Source of the DNA: a virus
Lineage: Duplodnaviria > Heunggongvirae > Uroviricota > Caudoviricetes
Length of the DNA: 50,364 bases
Direction: 5' to 3' (one strand)
Virus record (IMG/VR): IMGVR_UViG_2563366831_000011
Location: 1 to 50,364 of that record
The notes under the pieces were generated by a model that was not told the origin of the DNA, ran no database searches, and saw only the letters and a list, made by a program, of their open reading frames with translations. Shown here one piece after another: positions 1,009 through 45,931 of this stretch (position 1 is the stretch's first letter; each line of letters starts with the position of its first letter). Position numbers and translations under genes: made by a program.

Positions 1009-1083
1009 GTCCTCTTAGTTAAATGGATATAACGAGCCCCTCCTAAGGGCTAATTGCAGGTTCGATTCCTGCAGGGGACACCA
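1009..1083 (+). tRNA. argW: tRNA-Arg (anticodon CCU)
   Basis: 75-nt sequence GTCCTCTTAGTT...GGTTCGATTCCTGCAGGGGACACCA folds as a cloverleaf by eye; anticodon loop CT-CCT-AA; ends in CCA. Confidence 0.9.
1069..1083 (+). repeat. attL core: 15-bp direct repeat CTGCAGGGGACACCA (tRNA 3-prime end)
   Basis: Identical 15-mer recurs at 48661..48675; integrase lies immediately inside. Confidence 0.65.
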
Positions 1084-17879: not shown

Positions 17880-17915
17880 TTTTGTTTCCTGAATGAGTTA
17901 TCTGGCAATAAATAA

Positions 17916-17962
17916 GCCCACCGTAGTGGGCCATTCAAAAACCACGAATTTGTGGTTTTCAT
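17916..17962 (-). terminator. Tandem hairpins downstream of rha copy 1
   Basis: AAAACCAC-GAATTT-GTGGTTTT and GCCCAC-CGTA-GTGGGC followed by T-rich tracts on the minus strand. Confidence 0.45.
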
Positions 17963-18516
17963 GATTCGGTAAGCGCACCAGGAAAACCGGGCAATGCCAA
18001 CTGACCTTGCTTGTCCAGTTGCTCAATGCGTGAAAGTAGCTGTGGCTTCTTCTCTTTCCCCCACCGGCGCAACAGACGACCAGACATACTGGCAACATCC
18101 TTCTCTTTAAGGAACTCCAGCATGACGGCGTTACGCTCTTCTTCAAACTGGCGCCGCCCAACCTGAAGCATCGCGTACATCCAGTTGAAGGCGTTGATGT
18201 AGGCGATCTTGATACGCATCGCCTCTTTTTTGGTGTAGGACATAACCAGAAGCATCAATCCATCTTTGCGGAGGCGATAGAACTTCTGCGGCTTTCCGTT
18301 CTGCAACTCATTGTTTTTATAGCAAACCTCAAAATTGAGTTTTGTATCGAACTCTTCCGGGCATGCCTTAATAGTCTTTTCGATATCACGAATGACGTTG
18401 TCAGGACGTTTCCCAAATGCCTTCGCCACCATAAACGAGTCAGTTACCGGGTCGTTGTCAGCAACAAAAATGAGGTCACGGAAATCAAGTCCGTTAATAA
18501 CTGTTGGGTATGACAT
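17959..18516 (-). CDS. rha: Rha-family phage regulatory protein (moron copy 1)
   Basis: 185 aa; recalled Rha-family N-terminal domain; inserted between tail tube and chaperone genes and flanked by terminators. Confidence 0.65.
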   Translation of the reverse strand: MSYPTVINGLDFRDLIFVADNDPVTDSFMVAKAFGKRPDNVIRDIEKTIKACPEEFDTKLNFEVCYKNNELQNGKPQKFYRLRKDGLMLLVMSYTKKEAMRIKIAYINAFNWMYAMLQVGRRQFEEERNAVMLEFLKEKDVASMSGRLLRRWGKEKKPQLLSRIEQLDKQGQLALPGFPGALTES

Positions 18517-18526
18517 TGCGGTATTT

Positions 18527-18616
18527 CCTTTAGAAAGATGAGCCTGTTCGCACAGAAATGCCGCCCCGAGAAGGTCCGCACCTATACGGCATTTCTCAGG
18601 CTCAGCTTTCTGAAAG
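18527..18616. repeat. Conserved Rha leader element, copy A
   Basis: About 85 percent identical to 31848..31937; contains inverted repeat GAGCCTG...AGAAATGCCG...CGGCATTTCT...CAGGCTC. Confidence 0.7.
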
Positions 18617-18661
18617 ACTCGGGAGTTAAATGCGCTGCGACGCGCAGGAGGTTTATTTCTG

Positions 18662-18690
18662 GTATAAAAAAGCCCGGACTTGGCCGGGCT
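18662..18690 (-). terminator. Intrinsic terminator after the tail tube gene
   Basis: Minus strand AGCCCGGCCAAGTCCGGGCT followed by TTTTTT. Confidence 0.6.
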
Positions 18691-18696
18691 GATTGT

Positions 18697-19140
18697 TTAC
18701 GCTGAGTAGTCTGCCGGGGTGACAGTTTCCCACTGGATAAGTCCAGTTACCGGCTGAAGAACACGGCCGGCAGACGGCATGCGGCGTGCGCGCTGCAGGA
18801 TACCGTTAGTCATGATGTACTTTTTACCCAGCGACGGCAGGATCACAGTCCCATTGACACGCAGCACAGACCGCGTGGTCATCTGCGTGGTTTGCCAGTT
18901 GTCGATGTACTTAATCGACGGGGATGATGCCGCCAGATGGAAAGTCCACGGCAGATCACCATAAACAAAACCACCCAGCAGTTTACCGTCAGCAGTACGC
19001 TGGTACTCTGCCATGTCGGTATCACCCATTTCGAAGATGTTTTGTGCTTCGAACTGTTCCAGGTTAAACCCTGACGGGTAGAGCTCAGCGATTACCAGCT
19101 CAATGATGGCGTCAGCCGCCGTAATATTTTGACCGGCCAT
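18697..19140 (-). CDS. Tail tube protein
   Basis: 147 aa gene immediately downstream of the sheath gene, the typical sheath-tube order. Confidence 0.55.
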   Translation of the reverse strand: MAGQNITAADAIIELVIAELYPSGFNLEQFEAQNIFEMGDTDMAEYQRTADGKLLGGFVYGDLPWTFHLAASSPSIKYIDNWQTTQMTTRSVLRVNGTVILPSLGKKYIMTNGILQRARRMPSAGRVLQPVTGLIQWETVTPADYSA

Positions 19141-30019: not shown

Positions 30020-30688
30020 TCACGCCAGCTTAAGCATGCACGTCCCGCACGCTCTGGCAACATCGATATGAGCAACCTCCGCCGGCCTGTTCGCAGCATC
30101 CACCATTTCCTGCACGTCTTTGCTGGCGCCGTAACGCCGGACAACTCCGACGAATTCCTCGACGTCGTGGCCGCGAAGTTTGAGCACCGGCATACCGGTC
30201 TCTTTGTTGAATTTCGGCGCGCCATAGTCATCGGTAGCCTGGGCGATGTGGTAAAGCTCATGCTCTACCAGTGCGCAGAACTCCAGATCGTTGCATTGCT
30301 CGCAGTAGTCAGCAGCCAGGGTGATGATGAACTTCGGTATGCGTCCGAACCATTCATGCATCTGCTGCTCCATTCTGGCTTTCTGCCAGCCACCGGCGCG
30401 CATCATTACCTGCTCACACTGGCCCAGCACAATGCGGCCGCTTTTGGCGAATGAGCCAGAGGCCCACATGAACGCGACATCAGCATCGAGCAAGTGCGCA
30501 TGGTCAGGGTTATGGATTCGGCCATCTTCGGAGAGGATGTTCTGATTTACCCATTCGCCGATTTCGGCAGCAGGGATCAGCCGGGTATAAGGCAGCCAGT
30601 TTTCGCCAGTGAAGTTGACGGGAGGGTATGGTCTGCGATTGTCATTTCCAGCCATACAGAATAATCCTCTGGGTTGCTTTGATGCCAT
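30020..30688 (-). CDS. HExxH-motif protein (putative zinc metallopeptidase-like), unknown function
   Basis: 222 aa; HELYH motif and flanking Cys clusters (CEQCNDLEFC, CGTC); first gene of the packaging operon. Confidence 0.4.
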   Translation of the reverse strand: MASKQPRGLFCMAGNDNRRPYPPVNFTGENWLPYTRLIPAAEIGEWVNQNILSEDGRIHNPDHAHLLDADVAFMWASGSFAKSGRIVLGQCEQVMMRAGGWQKARMEQQMHEWFGRIPKFIITLAADYCEQCNDLEFCALVEHELYHIAQATDDYGAPKFNKETGMPVLKLRGHDVEEFVGVVRRYGASKDVQEMVDAANRPAEVAHIDVARACGTCMLKLA

Positions 30689-31158: not shown

Positions 31159-31311
31159 TCCTCGATTAATCCAAATTTCACTGCCATAATGCCGACATTC
31201 TCTGCCATTGTTGGCTCCGTTTATCCGTTAAAAGGGATATCAGTTAAGTTATCCCGTGCAGGGTATAAGCCATTATCAAGCCCCCCGTAGATAGGCTTTG
31301 TAATGACATCT

Positions 31312-31836
31312 TCAATTAATCAGCAGTTCAGGCTGTGTCACCTGCAAGATGTATTCATGCTCGACAGCCAGGACACGCTTCTCTTTCTTCCGTTCGTTCA
31401 TTAACCGACTGCCGATCGTACCTTTCAGCTTTGAGCGTGTTTCTTTGATGGCGTAGCGGTGCTGCATTTCTTCGCCAATTGCCATGCGGCGGCTCAGTTG
31501 CTCTGCCATCCAGTTGAATGCTGCGATATAGCTCTCCTTGATTGCCGCAGCAGCTTTCCCGGTGAACCCCATCACAACCATGATCCAGCCATCTTTCGTC
31601 AGGCTGTACATCGGGCGAACCTTGCCCTGCTCATCGATATAATCAGCCGACGCAAAATTGCGTTGGCTAAACTCACGCGAGCAATCAGCCTTAACCTGCT
31701 CGATTTTCCTGAGAACATCACCGTGTCGCTTGCCGAAGTACTTGGCAATTTTTCTGGATGTGGTAACGACCTCTCCGTTTTTGGCTTGCACCATTTCTCG
31801 GAAGTCGAAGGCTGGAATAACTGAATGATTATTCAT
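31312..31836 (-). CDS. rha: Rha-family phage regulatory protein (moron copy 2)
   Basis: 174 aa from MNNHSVI (tracked ORF starts at 31872); paralogous to 17959..18516; shared C-terminal AFNWM motif. Confidence 0.65.
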   Translation of the reverse strand: MNNHSVIPAFDFREMVQAKNGEVVTTSRKIAKYFGKRHGDVLRKIEQVKADCSREFSQRNFASADYIDEQGKVRPMYSLTKDGWIMVVMGFTGKAAAAIKESYIAAFNWMAEQLSRRMAIGEEMQHRYAIKETRSKLKGTIGSRLMNERKKEKRVLAVEHEYILQVTQPELLIN

Positions 31837-31847
31837 AGCGTCTTTAC

Positions 31848-31937
31848 CTTTTAGAAAGTGAGCCTGTCTCACAGAAAAGCCGCCCGAGAGAGGTCGCCAC
31901 CTATAACGGCATTTCTCAGGCTCGCTTACTGAAAGGC
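31848..31937. repeat. Conserved Rha leader element, copy B
   Basis: About 85 percent identical to 18527..18616, same position relative to the rha start codon. Confidence 0.7.
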
Positions 31938-31977
31938 TCTCGTGAATATGCGCGTGAGATGCGCATTTACTGCGGAC

Positions 31978-32003
31978 ATAAAAAAGCCCCGCATCGCGAG
32001 GCT
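31978..32003 (-). terminator. Intrinsic terminator after Rz
   Basis: Minus strand AGCCTCGCG-ATG-CGGGGCT followed by TTTTTT. Confidence 0.55.
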
Positions 32004-32034
32004 CATTAAATGGACTTTGTGATTTGCAAAAAAA

Positions 32035-32472
32035 TTATTTCAGGCATTGCGCCCTGATGTATTCCTGCAGGTAGTTGACCTGTGCGGTTATCTTGTCGAT
32101 TCCACTTCGGAGACGGTAATAATTGAGTTCAGCATCTGCTGTAAGTCTTGGGCTTTCTCCATCGCCCATGCTGCTGGCTCTGGTCGTTGATTTTGCACAG
32201 GTGGCGGCGACTTGCAGGCGCTTACGCCCAGAAGAAACATCAGCACGGAGACTTTCGATAGTCGCGTTAGCATCAGCAAGCTCCTTTGTATATCTGGCGT
32301 CGAGTTCTGCTACGTCACGTTGACGCTTCTGCATGTCAGCGATGATGGATGTGGCTTTGTCGCGCTGGGCTTTGTAGGCGATGGCGTTATCACGGTAATG
32401 ATTAACAGCCCATAACAGGCAGACGATGATGCAGATAACCAGAGCGGAGATAATCGCGGTGACTCTGCTCAT
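32035..32472 (-). CDS. Rz: Spanin inner-membrane subunit Rz
   Basis: 145 aa; N-terminus [19 protein letters not shown] matches lambda Rz from memory; follows endolysin. Confidence 0.8.
32088..32279 (-). CDS. Rz1: Spanin outer-membrane lipoprotein Rz1 (embedded in Rz, +1 frame)
   Basis: 63-aa embedded ORF with lipobox LLGVSAC followed by a Pro-rich segment. Confidence 0.65.
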
Positions 32473-33494: not shown

Positions 33495-33570
33495 TGGTGC
33501 TGTTTAACGGACTTGAACCGCTACCCATTCGCTTACAAGGCGACCGCTCTACCATTGGAGCTAAAACAGC
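33495..33570 (-). tRNA. tRNA-Thr (anticodon UGU), phage-encoded
   Basis: 76 nt; perfect 7-bp acceptor stem, 4-bp D stem, anticodon loop CTTGTAA, T-loop TTCAAGT, discriminator A then CCA (folded by eye). Confidence 0.75.
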
Positions 33571-33575
33571 ATGTT

Positions 33576-33650
33576 TGGCGGGACAGCGTGGACTCGAACC
33601 ACGATAAGAAGGTTAACAGCCTTCCGTAATGACCTTTATACGACTGACCC
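33576..33650 (-). tRNA. tRNA-Asn-like (anticodon GUU), possibly degenerate
   Basis: 75 nt; 5-bp anticodon stem with loop CTGTTAA, T-stem and TTCGAGT loop, terminal CCA; one mismatch each in acceptor and D stems. Confidence 0.45.
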
Positions 33651-43631: not shown

Positions 43632-43768
43632 ATGGTGGCCTTTATTTTTGGCATAAACAACAGAATAAACACTGCACTGTGTATTCATTCCAACGAGTGA
43701 ATACACGGAGCAATGTCGCTCGTAACTAAACAGGAGCCGACTTGTTCTGATTATTGGAAATCTTCTTT

Positions 43769-43795
43769 GCCCTCCAGTGTGAGGGCAATTTTTTT
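43769..43795 (+). terminator. Intrinsic terminator-like hairpin in the pL operon
   Basis: GCCCTC-CAGTGT-GAGGGC followed by AATTTTTTT. Confidence 0.45.
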
Positions 43796-45224: not shown

Positions 45225-45325
45225 TGGTGACCGCGAAGGAATGCGGGTATGCCTTAATTTGTCCCGAGTCGAAGTATTAAATCAGCGTTATTTCCTTGGG
45301 CCGTGTCCATTCTGAGATCAAACAT

Positions 45326-45931
45326 ATGAGCAAAGAATTTTATGCAAGGCTGGCAGCCATTCAGGAGAATCTGAACGCGCCAAAGAATCAGTACAACTCA
45401 TTCGGTAAATATAAATACAGAAGCTGCGAAGACATTCTTGAAGGCGTTAAGCCGTTACTGAATGGTCTGTTTTTATCAATCAGCGATGAAGTTGTGTTGA
45501 TTGGTGATCGGTATTACGTGAAAGCCACGGCAACTATTACCGATGGCGAAAACAGTCATACGGCAACCGCTCTTGCACGAGAGGAAGAAAGCAAGAAAGG
45601 AATGGATTCTGCACAAGTTACGGGAGCTACAAGCTCTTATGCACGCAAGTATTGCCTCAATGGTTTGTTCGGCATTGATGATGCGAAAGATGCAGATACC
45701 GACGAGCATAAACATCAGCAGAACGCAGCAGCAAAGCAATCAAAACCATCACCTACACCTGAACAGGTTCTAAAAGCATTCACTGACGCAGCAATGCAGA
45801 AAAACACCGTAGAAGAGCTTAAACAGGCGTTCGCCAAAGCGTGGAAGATGCTCGAAGGCACACCGGAGCAGCACAAAGCGCAGGACGTTTACAACATCAG
45901 ACGAGACGAATTAGAAGGAGCGGCTGCTTAA
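45326..45931 (+). CDS. Single-strand annealing protein (Erf-like)
   Basis: 201 aa from MSKEFYARLAAIQ; motif SYARKYCLNGLFGIDD recalled as Erf-family-like; immediately upstream of an SSB gene. Confidence 0.5.
   Translation: MSKEFYARLAAIQENLNAPKNQYNSFGKYKYRSCEDILEGVKPLLNGLFLSISDEVVLIGDRYYVKATATITDGENSHTATALAREEESKKGMDSAQVTGATSSYARKYCLNGLFGIDDAKDADTDEHKHQQNAAAKQSKPSPTPEQVLKAFTDAAMQKNTVEELKQAFAKAWKMLEGTPEQHKAQDVYNIRRDELEGAAA

What the first reader, a model, noticed from the sequence alone, without database searches (positions are those of the whole stretch)
17959..18616. Two paralogous Rha morons share a conserved ~90-bp leader
Rha-family genes at 17959..18516 and 31312..31836 are each inserted between late-operon genes, each preceded by an upstream-gene terminator. 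The ~90 bp directly upstream of both start codons are about 85 percent identical (copy B at 31848..31937) and contain the long inverted repeat GAGCCTG / AGAAATGCCG ... CGGCATTTCT / CAGGCTC. Conservation of noncoding sequence between diverged paralogs points to a functional cis-element (operator, promoter or structured RNA leader), and to duplication of a mobile moron cassette.
Basis: seen in the sequence. Interest (0 to 1): 0.55.

Follow-up and report, generated by a model that had tools for sequence, protein, structure and literature searches.

The report
Pseudoknotted RNA leader before antirepressor-like genes
The shared ~110-base stretch in front of both Rha genes is a widespread but uncatalogued structured RNA leader, a long hairpin closed by a pseudoknot that buries the ribosome-binding site, and it precedes many different antirepressor-like genes in temperate phages including P22, phi80, HK620 and Shiga-toxin phages.

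Summary
Both Rha genes lie on the minus strand, and each follows an intrinsic terminator and a conserved leader. The leaders are 82-83% identical, against 57% for the coding DNA and 35% for the proteins.

The leader is a structured RNA read on the gene's strand. It has a small hairpin (P0), an A/U-rich linker, then a ~95-nt hairpin (P1-P2-P3, with P4 optional). The Shine-Dalgarno sequence lies in the 3' strand of P1. A 6-7 nt segment 'a' just 5' of the hairpin pairs with 'a'' in the apical loop, forming a pseudoknot.

Covariation supports both. In the nested helices 28 of 33 pairs change on both sides. For a:a', cognate pairing beat all 100,000 permutations.

The element has no Rfam match. It is found in 147 phage records and at least 751 of 5426 complete E. 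coli genomes. It sits ahead of Rha, KilA-N, Bro-N, ANT, P22_AR_N, GIY-YIG and HNH genes. The P22 member matches 'P22F', an abundant 89-nt RNA of unknown function reported in 2026.

Most likely function: a cis-acting translational lock, perhaps relieved or destroyed by endonucleolytic processing. The trigger is unknown. The two window copies were acquired separately, not duplicated in place, and no promoter was found.

The parts
18664..18690 (-). Copy A: intrinsic terminator of the upstream tail-tube-like gene (18697..19140), stem plus U-run. It marks the 5' boundary of the conserved cassette.
   Evidence: Terminator scan. Coordinates. Similarity to other phages starts here.
18631..18646 (-). 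Copy A: P0 hairpin, UGCGC-GUCGCA-GCGCA.
   Evidence: Present in nearly all family members as GCGC-N6/7-GCGC. Variants include GUGC/GCAC, GCGCC/GGCGC and occasional G.U pairs.
18618..18624 (-). Copy A: segment a (UCCCGAG), the 5' arm of the pseudoknot, directly 5' of the hairpin.
   Evidence: Complementary to a' at 18564-18570. Cognate vs non-cognate test: 0 of 100000 permutations reached the observed pairing.
18606..18617 (-). Copy A: P1 5' strand (UCUUU C AGAAAG), containing the anti-Shine-Dalgarno sequence.
   Evidence: MFE fold. Covarying pairs in columns 13-24 with 108-123.
18597..18604 (-). Copy A: P2 5' strand (UGAGCCUG).
18587..18596 (-). Copy A: P3 5' strand (AGAAAUGCCG).
18572..18583 (-). 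Copy A: P4 apical mini-hairpin (A-GGU-GCGG-ACC-U). It is dispensable in some subtypes.
   Evidence: All 4 of its pairs change on both sides, for example A-U to U-A in 22 sequences. Absent in the Salmonella 29485 type.
18564..18570 (-). Copy A: segment a' (CUCGGGG), the 3' arm of the pseudoknot in the apical loop, abutting P3.
18554..18563 (-). Copy A: P3 3' strand (CGGCAUUUCU).
18547..18553 (-). Copy A: conserved purine-rich 7-nt bulge (GUGCGAA) on the 3' strand between P3 and P2.
   Evidence: Present in all members as RUGNRR(A), with no nucleotide opposite on the 5' strand.
18539..18546 (-). Copy A: P2 3' strand (CAGGCUCA).
18526..18537 (-). Copy A: P1 3' strand (CUUUCU A AAGGA), including the Shine-Dalgarno AAGGA at 18526-18530.
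   Evidence: The SD is mostly paired: P(unpaired) 0.08-0.30 per base, mean 0.15-0.19. Opening it costs 5-6 kcal/mol at 37 C.
17959..18516 (-). Copy A: rha gene (Rha N-terminal domain plus ORF11CD3 C-terminal domain), ATG at 18514-18516. A terminator-like hairpin lies downstream at 17915-17932.
   Evidence: Pfam. Terminator scan.
31978..32004 (-). Copy B: intrinsic terminator of Rz (32035..32472).
31948..31966 (-). Copy B: P0 hairpin, AUGCGC-AUCUCAC-GCGCAU.
31937..31943 (-). Copy B: segment a (A-CGAGAG).
   Evidence: Complementary to CUCUCG at 31885-31890. Relative to copy A, both arms have changed together.
31907..31936 (-). Copy B: 5' strands of P1 (CCUUU C AGUAAG, 31925-31936), P2 (GAGCCUG, 31917-31923) and P3 (AGAAAUGCCG, 31907-31916).
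31885..31902 (-). Copy B: P4 mini-hairpin (31891-31902) and segment a' (CUCUCG, 31885-31890).
31847..31882 (-). Copy B: P3 3' strand (31873-31882), bulge GUGAGA (31867-31872), P2 3' strand (31860-31866) and P1 3' strand with SD AAGG (31847-31858).
   Evidence: The SD is 96-99% paired. Opening costs ~12 kcal/mol at 37 C.
31312..31836 (-). Copy B: rha gene, true start ATG 31834-31836. The longer ORF from GTG 31872 starts inside the leader.
   Evidence: Pfam. ORF list. Family alignment places the ATG 7-11 nt after the SD.

Best explanation
Each leader is transcribed on the gene's strand, as part of the late transcript that reads through the upstream terminator. It folds into a compact structured RNA.

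The fold is a ~95-nt hairpin (P1-P2-P3, plus an optional apical P4). Its basal helix P1 pairs the Shine-Dalgarno sequence with an anti-SD (CCUUU/UCUUU). A 6-7 bp pseudoknot then closes the structure by joining the nucleotides just 5' of the hairpin (a) to the apical loop (a').

Shown: the structure, its strand, its conservation, SD sequestration, and the association with antirepressor-like genes.

Inferred: the fold acts in cis as a translational lock. It would keep these DNA-binding or antirepressor-like proteins very low despite massive late transcription.

Inferred more weakly: the lock is released, or the mRNA is inactivated, by endonucleolytic processing. In P22 the abundant 89-nt RNA 'P22F' starts inside the 5' strand of P1, so it has lost segment a and the anti-SD. 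It ends between the SD and the AUG.

The trigger is not known. Candidates are RNase III or RNase E, a protein, a ligand, or the leader fragment acting in trans.
For: Structure.
- Minimum free energy is -43.2 (z -4.6) for copy A and -38.9 kcal/mol (z -2.4) for copy B.
- On 106 distinct sequences, 93.5% of cells are paired against 84.6% in shuffles (0 of 500 shuffles reach it).
- 28 of 33 pairs change on both sides. The covariation score is 0.240, against 0.102 shuffled and 0.02-0.05 for slid controls.

Pseudoknot.
- There are 20 distinct a 7-mers. Examples are CCCGAG/CUCGGG, CGAGAG/CUCUCG, CCUGGAG/CUCCAGG, CACAGAA/UUCUGUG, CGCAGAG/CUCUGCG and CAUCGAA/UUCGAUG.
- The cognate contiguous run averages 6.95 bp against 4.99 when permuted. 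Duplex energy is -10.6 against -6.7 kcal/mol. Both beat all 100000 permutations.
- In the minimal subtype only 2 nt (UA) link P3 to a', as expected for a loop crossing the deep groove of a 7-bp helix (the geometric rule is established knowledge of H-type pseudoknots).

Strand.
- G.U cells number 105 against 16 A.C cells.
- The model scores 117/112 bits on the sense strand and 27/25 on the antisense.

SD sequestration.
- The SD lies in the P1 3' strand in every subtype, including divergent copies where both strands have changed (CACAUAG/CUAUGUG).
- Predicted opening cost is 5-12 kcal/mol for the window copies.

Generality.
- 147 phage records, at least 751 of 5426 complete E. coli genomes, P22 and phi80.
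- The model is specific: in 742 kb of unrelated bacterial DNA the only hits were a Pantoea prophage.

In vivo RNA.
- P22F is 89 nt, with 926 RPM in infected cells and 2054 RPM in vesicles, and was validated by RT-PCR (PMC13397905).
- It maps onto the P22 member of the family, which scores 51.5 bits, E 1.5e-13.
- Removing the part 5' of the P22F start lowers the predicted cost of opening the SD by 1.8-3.7 kcal/mol.

Precedent.
- The Gifsy-1 isrK-orf45-anrP leader is transcribed but translationally silent until the RNA is remodelled (PMC4825925).
- rha expression is known to be harmful to the phage when deregulated in IHF-defective hosts (as summarised in PMC4936722).
Against: - No translation measurement exists for any member.
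- The predicted opening cost is modest for copy A (5-6 kcal/mol) and for P22 (3.9 kcal/mol). It drops only ~2 kcal/mol for copy B after 5' truncation. These calculations ignore the pseudoknot.
- P22F's 3' end lies about 9 nt past the last P1 pair. That is also what 3' exonucleases stalling at a stable hairpin would leave, so P22F may be only a decay remnant.
- The pair counts were made on an alignment fitted to the model. Many sequences are close relatives found with a pattern that fixed GAGCCTGAGA.
- Whether a:a' and P1 coexist or alternate could not be tested.
- One subtype has an invariant TATAAT just 5' of segment a. Some members may therefore also have a promoter, giving transcripts that lack a.
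Confidence: 0.6

Rival explanations
1. The leader's main product is a trans-acting small RNA, as with IsrK. A processed or terminated leader fragment (P22F-like) would pair with full-length leaders or with other targets. It could free the SD of its own mRNA by titrating the anti-SD, or it could regulate host or phage genes.
For: P22F accumulates as a discrete 89-nt RNA. It carries a free a' loop and a free SD-side tail, but lacks a and the anti-SD. IsrK sets a precedent upstream of an antirepressor-like gene. The a/a' specificity classes differ between the two copies in one phage, which would keep two such circuits from interfering with each other.
Against: No internal terminator or promoter exists to make a short isoform, and the U-tract after the hairpin is not conserved. 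Intramolecular pairing explains the a:a' covariation more simply. There is no Rfam isrK or C4 match at E up to 10. Each P22F molecule would cost one mRNA.
Confidence: 0.15
2. It is a regulated sensor: a riboswitch-like or protein-binding translational operator. The pseudoknotted fold would bind a small molecule, a host factor or a phage protein, and that binding would decide whether P1 forms.
For: The fold is compact, and its lengths match: P3 plus a:a' is about 17 bp, and P2 plus P1 is about 20 bp. There is a conserved purine-rich bulge (RUGNRR) and a conserved P0 loop (AUCNCAC). Many downstream proteins share a C-terminal ORF11CD3-like module that could feed back on the leader. Genetics links rha to IHF.
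Against: Few unpaired nucleotides are conserved, and most conservation lies in long regular helices. The leader also precedes GIY-YIG, HNH and ANT genes that lack the shared C-terminal module. No IHF consensus site is conserved in the leader (my inspection).
Confidence: 0.15
3. It is an mRNA stability or processing element only. On this reading it is a nuclease-resistant hairpin that separates and protects the flanking late-operon segments, with no role in translating the downstream gene.
For: P22F's 3' end lies about 9 nt past the hairpin base, like an exonuclease stall product. The cassettes sit at operon junctions next to terminators.
Against: The SD is kept inside P1 through compensatory changes in every subtype, and the element always ends 7-11 nt before a start codon. 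A pure stabiliser would not need either property.
Confidence: 0.07
4. It is a DNA-level element: an operator, a promoter or a recombination 'linker' conserved by recent exchange. The palindromes would be protein-binding sites or simply mosaic joints.
For: The similarity between phages starts and stops at the leader, so it does act as a mosaic boundary. P0 is a GC palindrome. One subtype carries TATAAT.
Against: No promoter was found in either window copy. Strand asymmetry is strong, with 105 G.U against 16 A.C cells and sense scores far above antisense. A pseudoknot with 20 co-varying arm pairs has no DNA-level rationale. Divergent copies keep the pairing but not the sequence.
Confidence: 0.03

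Closest known systems
P22F small non-coding RNA of phage P22 (Noncoding RNA 2026;12(4):21, PMC13397905)
   Same: P22F is the P22 member of this family. The 89-nt RNA at AF217253 21301-21389 lies inside the covariance-model hit in P22 (51.5 bits, E 1.5e-13). It is on the same strand as rha and ends 6 nt before the rha start.
   Different: The paper reports it only as an abundant read cluster with 'no known function'. It does not describe a consensus structure, the pseudoknot, SD sequestration, or the family found ahead of non-Rha genes. P22 belongs to a divergent subtype with a 6-nt spacer between a and P1. The window copies share the architecture with it but little sequence.
IsrK / isrK-orf45-anrP leader of Gifsy-1 (PLoS Genet 2016, PMC4825925; Rfam RF01394)
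   Same: Both are structured leaders upstream of a prophage antirepressor-like gene. The mRNA is transcribed but translationally silent until the leader structure is remodelled.
   Different: No sequence or structure homology: cmscan gives no isrK hit at E up to 10. IsrK has its own promoter and a terminator that creates the short trans-acting isoform, and it acts through a 45-codon upstream ORF. The present leaders have none of these.
Antisense RNA control of antirepressors: P22 sar and P1/P7 c4 (Rfam RF01695)
   Same: Both apply RNA-level control to the ribosome-binding site of an antirepressor gene in temperate phages.
   Different: Those are separate antisense or processed RNAs that pair with the target in trans. 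Here the pairing is intramolecular on the sense strand, and there is no Rfam C4 hit.
RNase III-processed phage leaders (lambda N leader, T7 early mRNAs; established knowledge, not tested here)
   Same: Both have a long, nearly regular helix of two turns or more that includes the translation initiation region. In P22 an RNA 5' end lies inside the helix, 12 bp below the internal bulge.
   Different: No cleavage data exist for an rnc mutant. The P22F ends do not form the 2-nt staggered pair expected of a double cut. The pseudoknot has no counterpart in those leaders.
Pseudoknotted translational operators (E. coli rpsO/S15, alpha-operon/S4, T4 gene 32; established knowledge)
   Same: In both, a pseudoknot next to or including the ribosome-binding site controls initiation.
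   Different: Those are short H-type knots bound by the encoded protein. Here the knot joins the 5' flank to the tip of a ~30-bp hairpin, and the downstream proteins are of many unrelated types.

Membership tests
Leader family defined here (covariance model R1) | Nested helices P1-P2-P3 with covariation, on the strand of the downstream gene | tested here: met
   117 and 112 bits for the two window copies against 27 and 25 antisense. 28 of 33 pairs change on both sides, and 93.5% of cells are paired.
Leader family defined here (covariance model R1) | Pseudoknot between the 6-7 nt 5' of P1 and the 3' part of the apical loop | tested here: met
   Copy A: UCCCGAG/CUCGGGG. Copy B: CGAGAG/CUCUCG. 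The family-wide cognate test gave 0 of 100000 permutations.
Leader family defined here (covariance model R1) | Shine-Dalgarno sequence inside the P1 3' strand, with the start codon 7-11 nt downstream | tested here: met
P22F sncRNA (PMC13397905) | Homology to the 89-nt P22 RNA just upstream of rha | tested here: met
   The same model hits P22 at L372:882-992, which encloses P22F at 901-989. Homology is at the level of architecture, because the sequences are too divergent for megablast.
P22F sncRNA (PMC13397905) | Accumulates as a discrete small RNA during infection | not testable with these tools
   No RNA data exist for this Klebsiella prophage.
IsrK (Rfam RF01394) | Match to the Rfam covariance model | tested here: not met
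   No isrK hit at E up to 10 in either leader.
IsrK (Rfam RF01394) | Own promoter plus an internal terminator giving a short and a read-through isoform | tested here: not met
   No sigma-70-like promoter was found. The U-rich run after the hairpin is not conserved in divergent copies.
C4 / sar antisense RNAs | Rfam model match, or a functional antisense strand | tested here: not met
   No hit. G.U/A.C asymmetry and model scores favour the sense strand.
Moron (independent transcription unit in a prophage late region) | Own promoter upstream of the gene | tested here: not met
   Zero promoter-like sites in 17900-18800 and in 31250-32100. Only a consensus scan was run, so weak or activator-dependent promoters are not excluded.
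Moron (independent transcription unit in a prophage late region) | Terminator downstream of the inserted gene; insertion between conserved late genes | tested here: met
   Copy A has a terminator-like site at 17915-17932(-). The flanking genes are tail-tube-like and Rz. Related cassettes sit after Rz, tail tube, tail completion and DUF6246 genes.
Transcription attenuator (intrinsic terminator in a leader) | Conserved U-tract directly after the hairpin | tested here: not met
   AUCUUUCU in the window copies is replaced by UCAUCACU, CACACCUA or UAAUAUCU in divergent members.
RNA thermometer | The SD helix melts over the physiological temperature range | tested here: inconclusive
   The predicted opening cost changes only from 5.8 to 4.7 kcal/mol (A) and from 14.5 to 10.1 kcal/mol (B) between 30 and 42 C. 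This is a nested model only.
RNase III substrate | About two turns of near-regular duplex | tested here: met
   P1 plus P2 make ~20 bp with two mismatches.
RNase III substrate | Cleavage that depends on rnc | not testable with these tools
   The only data point is the P22F 5' end inside P1.
Riboswitch | Ligand-dependent structural switch | not testable with these tools
   No Rfam riboswitch hit. Few unpaired positions are conserved.
Pfam Phage_pRha (PF09669), for the two downstream proteins | Score above the gathering threshold | tested here: met
   82.4 and 99.1 bits against a cut-off of 29.9.

The most novel reading that the evidence does not exclude
The leader is a regulated RNA device rather than a passive dampener. 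Its long-range pseudoknot and conserved bulge would form a sensor for a host or phage protein, a metabolite, or the leader's own processed fragment acting in trans as IsrK does. That sensor would time the burst of antirepressor-like proteins late in infection. If so, it would be a previously unrecognised class of phage riboregulator shared by P22, phi80, HK620 and Shiga-toxin phages, and it would be the missing cis-element behind the classical IHF-dependent Rha phenotype.
Probability: 0.25. Interest if true: 0.8.

Novelty: new variant of a known kind. Interest (0 to 1): 0.62.

Why it matters
The element is common. It occurs in textbook phages (P22, phi80, HK620), in Shiga-toxin phages, and in about one in seven complete E. 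coli genomes. Yet it is absent from Rfam 15, and no paper I could search describes it as a structure.

It controls, or at least precedes, a whole class of poorly understood late-operon genes: Rha, KilA-N, Bro-N, ANT and P22_AR_N proteins. These are thought to act as antirepressors or DNA-binding regulators, and they can be toxic to the phage when deregulated.

A defined RNA structure with testable pairings gives three things:
- a handle on how rha is kept in check, a question open since the Rha/IHF genetics of the 1980s-90s;
- an explanation for the origin of the abundant P22F RNA;
- corrected start codons for rha in the P22 and phi80 reference annotations.

It also marks a modular cassette boundary that helps explain mosaic gene exchange in lambdoid phages.

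Tried and rejected
1. Known RNA family. Rfam 15 at gathering thresholds found only three tRNAs in the window. At E up to 10 the two leaders gave only noise, namely terminator look-alikes and miRNA hairpins.

2. Promoter or operator. The consensus scan found none. Promoter-like hexamers are not conserved across subtypes.

3. Attenuator. The U-tract is not conserved.

4. Leader peptide. Copy A has a 20-codon ORF starting in P3, but copy B stops after 3 codons and most subtypes lack the AUG (inspection).

5. Thermometer. The predicted temperature dependence is small.

6. Hammerhead or k-turn readings of CUGAGA...GUGCGAA. The three-way junction or tandem G.A geometry is not present, and there is no Rfam hit (inspection only).

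7. In-situ duplication. Rejected by nearest-neighbour analysis.

8. Wasted scan. The genome-contig scan used a pattern that was too degenerate and returned chance hits in unrelated phyla. I reused these as a negative control for the model; only a Pantoea prophage scored.

9. Column-wise counting of the pseudoknot. This failed because the a:a' register slides by 1 nt between subtypes. I replaced it with a register-free cognate vs non-cognate permutation test.

10. Literature.
- Henthorn & Friedman 1995 (PMC177009) and the Casjens & Hendrix review could not be opened.
- Full-text searches for the leader sequence found nothing: none of the four specific 14-16-nt strings nor the RNA-form 11-mer occurs in any paper, and the DNA 11-mer appeared only in papers on unrelated topics among those listed.
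- Large structured-RNA screens do not mention Rha, KilA or antirepressor contexts in their main text.

11. IHF consensus (WATCAANNNNTTR) in the leaders. Not conserved (inspection).
Full report
**What is in the window**

The window is a Klebsiella temperate phage. It is 97-98% identical to Klebsiella phages KpnBHU6, klb_E and ST15-VIM1phi2.1 across the region examined. All the genes discussed lie on the minus strand.

The ORF at 17959..18516 has a Pfam Rha domain and a C-terminal ORF11CD3 domain. The ORF at 31312..31836 has a Rha domain. The two proteins are 35% identical.

Copy A lies between a tail-tube-like gene (E217_Gp32 family, 18697..19140) and the next tail gene. Copy B lies directly after Rz (32035..32472). 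Each upstream gene ends in an intrinsic terminator, at 18671-18690 and 31984-32004.

The coding DNA is 56.6% identical. The conserved unit is in fact longer, running ~175 nt from the terminator to the ATG.

**Anatomy**

Read 5' to 3' on the minus strand, each leader has these parts (coordinates):
- the terminator;
- a small GC hairpin P0 (A: UGCGC-GUCGCA-GCGCA, 18631-18646; B: 31948-31966);
- a short A/U-rich linker;
- a 7-nt segment a (A: UCCCGAG, 18618-18624; B: ACGAGAG, 31937-31943);
- a long hairpin.

The hairpin itself is built as follows:
- P1 has two parts separated by a C.A mismatch. Its 3' strand holds the Shine-Dalgarno sequence (A: AAGGA, 18526-18530; B: AAGG, 31847-31850).
- P2 is GAGCCUG/CAGGCUC.
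- A 6-7 nt purine-rich bulge lies on the 3' strand only (GUGCGAA / GUGAGA).
- P3 has 10 bp.
- The apical loop holds a mini-hairpin P4 and segment a' (A: CUCGGGG, 18564-18570; B: CUCUCG, 31885-31890).

Minimum free energies are -43.2 kcal/mol (z -4.6) for A and -38.9 (z -2.4) for B. Segments a and a' are complementary in both copies, but with different sequences.

**It is a family, and it is not specific to Rha**

blastn finds the leader in 147 phage records. These include P22-like phages (CUS-3, Sf101, HK620 and the SE1 group), HK106, HK639, Stx1a and Stx2a phages, and phages of Hafnia, Enterobacter, Providencia and Pantoea. In many of them only the leader matches and the gene does not.

In HK620 the downstream gene is the KilA-N protein hkbK.

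Two pattern scans of IMG/VR gave about 250 elements with 131 distinct cores. The 235 complete downstream ORFs fall into 22 clusters:
- Rha (80 loci);
- KilA-N (66 plus others);
- Bro-N, ANT/KilAC and P22_AR_N;
- T5orf172/MUG113 (annotated by NCBI as GIY-YIG) and HNH_3.

Megablast with copy B alone finds the leader in 751 of 5426 complete E. coli genomes. It is never annotated as an RNA there.

The upstream gene is most often Rz (97 of 201). It can also be a tail tube protein of three unrelated families, a tail completion protein, LysC or DUF6246.

**Evidence that it is an RNA structure on the sense strand**

I built a covariance model (R1) from 34 representatives with the nested structure.

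With filters off, the model finds exactly two sites in the window, at 117.4 and 112.4 bits. The reverse strand of the same sites scores 27 and 25 bits.

Over 100 loci it finds 108 sense-strand matches. Six of these are much more divergent second copies in the same phages (L112:589-703, L050:11112-11222, L012:8529-8625, L003:179-293, L157:4302-4418, L026:3245-3341). A seventh, weaker divergent match (L179:1305-1424, 33 bits) lies outside that set. These copies keep every helix while changing the sequence. For example, P1 becomes CACAUAGGAAUA/UAAUAUCUAUGUG and P3 becomes GGGGAAACCG/CGGCUUUCCC.

On the resulting alignment of 106 distinct rows:
- 93.5% of cells are paired, against 84.6% in shuffles (0 of 500 shuffles reach it);
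- 28 of 33 pairs change on both sides;
- the covariation score is 0.240, against 0.102 in shuffles;
- sliding the partner by 1-3 columns drops pairing to 31-50% and the score to 0.02-0.05.

G.U pairs number 105 cells in 22 pair columns. A.C pairs number 16 cells in 8 columns. This is what an RNA made from the gene's strand predicts. A DNA palindrome or an antisense RNA would not give it.

Caveat: the alignment was fitted to the model, and many sequences are close relatives.

**The pseudoknot**

The a:a' register slides by one nucleotide between subtypes, so a column-wise count was not possible. I used a register-free test instead.

For each of 20 distinct a 7-mers I measured the longest contiguous complementarity, and the duplex energy, between the 9 nt preceding P1 and the apical loop. 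I did this for the cognate loop and for loops from other types:
- cognate pairs average 6.95 bp and -10.6 kcal/mol;
- permuted pairs average 4.99 bp and -6.7 kcal/mol;
- 0 of 100000 permutations reach either observed value.

Examples are CCCGAG/CUCGGG, CGAGAG/CUCUCG, CCUAGAG/CUCUGGG, CCUGGAG/CUCCAGG, CCAAGAG/CUCUUGG, CACAGAA/UUCUGUG, CGCAGAG/CUCUGCG, CAUCGAA/UUCGAUG and, in P22, CCACCGA/UCGGUGG.

In the shortest subtype only two nucleotides (UA) join P3 to a'. By the established rules for H-type pseudoknots, that is the loop length able to cross the deep groove of a 6-7 bp helix.

My inference, which I did not model: a:a' stacks on P3, giving about 17 bp. This stack lies beside P2 plus P1, about 20 bp. 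The bulge provides the turn at one end, and the direct a-to-P1 junction closes the other.

**What it probably does**

In every subtype the Shine-Dalgarno sequence is the 3' strand of the basal helix. The pairing is kept by compensatory change: CCUUU/AAAGG, CCUA/UAGG and CCUUA/UAAGG.

The predicted cost of opening the SD-to-AUG region at 37 C is 5-6 kcal/mol for copy A and about 12 for copy B. It depends little on temperature.

No promoter is detectable in either leader. The genes must therefore be expressed from late-operon read-through.

The simplest reading is a cis-acting translational lock. It would hold down antirepressor-like proteins while the surrounding late mRNA is made in bulk. This fits what is known of rha: it is detrimental to phage growth when IHF is absent (summarised in PMC4936722).

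phi80, the phage in which rha was defined, carries a copy nearly identical to window copy B at 43663-43777 (114 bits). It has a second, divergent copy at 45257-45354.

**Experimental anchor**

A 2026 small-RNA study of P22 infection lists ten read clusters that account for 99.8% of P22-specific reads. One is 'P22F': 89 nt, AF217253 21301-21389, with 926 RPM in cells and 2054 RPM in vesicles. It was checked by RT-PCR, ends 6 nt from the rha start, and has no known function (PMC13397905).

Model R1 hits P22 at L372:882-992 (51.5 bits, E 1.5e-13), and P22F at 901-989 lies inside that hit.

The 5' end of P22F falls inside the 5' strand of P1. It has therefore lost segment a and the anti-SD. Its 3' end lies 9 nt past the last P1 pair, between the SD and the AUG.

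Two readings are possible:
- an endonuclease (RNase III or E) cuts the 5' strand and frees the SD, so that processing activates translation;
- P22F is the nuclease-resistant remnant of an mRNA that has been inactivated.

Truncating at the equivalent position lowers the predicted opening cost by 1.8-3.7 kcal/mol. I cannot decide between them.

**Comparison with known systems**

The nearest functional analogue is the Gifsy-1 isrK-orf45-anrP leader. It is transcribed but translationally silent upstream of an antirepressor-like gene, and the short IsrK isoform activates it in trans (PMC4825925).

There is no homology to IsrK, since no Rfam isrK hit appears at E up to 10. The present leaders also lack IsrK's promoter, its terminator and its upstream ORF.

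P22 sar and P1 c4 also control antirepressor translation through RNA. They do so as antisense or trans RNAs.

Pseudoknotted translational operators (S15, S4, T4 gp32) and RNase III-processed phage leaders (lambda N, T7) are mechanistic relatives from established knowledge. I did not test membership of either class beyond its structural prerequisites.

The 'structured RNA leader' option is right. The 'operator/promoter' option is not supported.

'Duplication of a moron cassette' needs revising. The leader-plus-gene unit is a portable cassette and often occurs in tandem (L003, L012, L026, L112, L157, L179, Pantoea L328, phi80). But the two window copies are different subtypes. Each is closer to copies in other phages than to the other window copy.

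**Novelty**

The mechanism class, an SD-sequestering leader, is known. This RNA family and its long-range pseudoknot are not in Rfam 15, nor in any paper I could search. The one exception is the uncharacterised P22F read cluster. I therefore rate it a new variant of a known kind, of moderately high interest.

Noticed in passing
window 31837-31872; L372 (P22 BK000583) 926-997; L373 (phi80 JX871397) 43739-43777: Reference annotations start rha inside the leader: GTG at BK000583 39575 (hence 'ORF201') and position 43739 in phi80. The window's longest ORF for copy B likewise starts at GTG 31872. The family alignment, SD spacing and conserved N-termini (MNN.SVIPAFDFR / MNELIANHDFDFR) place the true start at the ATG 7-11 nt after the SD.
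   Followed up: partly
L373 45257-45354; L003 179-293; L012 8529-8625; L026 3245-3341; L112 589-703; L157 4302-4418; L179 1305-1424; L328 3535-3648 and 4862-4974: Many phages carry two leader-plus-gene cassettes, often in tandem and 1-2 kb apart. The second leader is much more divergent (33-65 bits). In the Stx2 phage locus L003 the upstream cassette appears to encode a P22-antirepressor-like protein, judged from its N-terminal residues only.
   Followed up: partly
window 17959-18135 (C-terminal third of copy A protein) and downstream proteins in L001-L250: Proteins with different N-terminal DNA-binding domains (Rha, KilA-N, P22_AR_N, Bro-N) share a C-terminal ORF11CD3-like module with the motif ...GxxLxxWGxxKK.... 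An HMM seeded on three Pfam-confirmed segments finds it in 74 of 137 unique proteins. Several non-hits show a similar motif by eye. Its function is unknown, and GIY-YIG, HNH and ANT cassettes lack it.
   Followed up: partly
L008, L137, L143 and related IMG/VR loci, linker just 5' of segment a: The Salmonella phage 29485-type leaders have an invariant TATAAT immediately upstream of segment a, with no recognisable -35. If it is a real -10 element, transcripts would start within or after a and so lack the pseudoknot arm. This subtype also lacks P4.
   Followed up: no
window 18697-19140 / 18517-18690, and loci summarised: The junction after the tail tube gene is a recurrent insertion point for these cassettes. 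It occurs with three unrelated tail-tube families (E217_Gp32 here, lambda-like Phage_TTP_12, and Phage_tail_3), besides the usual site after Rz/Rz1.
   Followed up: partly
window 18631-18646 and 31948-31966: The small hairpin P0 (GCGC-N6/7-GCGC, loop consensus AUCNCAC) between the terminator and the pseudoknot is conserved across the family, with a few compensatory and G.U variants. Two alternative conserved segments precede it: ATCTGAATTTCAC or GTCCGCAGTAAAC. No role is assigned.
   Followed up: partly
window 1009-1080 (+), 33498-33570 (-), 33579-33650 (-): Three tRNA genes. Two of them lie in tandem just upstream (in transcription order) of the holin-lysozyme-Rz lysis cassette, the same position as the central tRNA pair described for prophage BTP1.
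   Followed up: no
window 18534-18596 (-): Copy A's leader contains a 20-codon ORF (AUG within P3, stop just before the SD). It is not conserved: copy B stops after three codons and most subtypes lack the AUG. It is probably fortuitous.
   Followed up: yes
window 30020-30688 (-): A putative phage metallopeptidase (PF18894, E 4.4e-44) lies downstream of copy B, between the rha cassette and the packaging and head genes.
   Followed up: no
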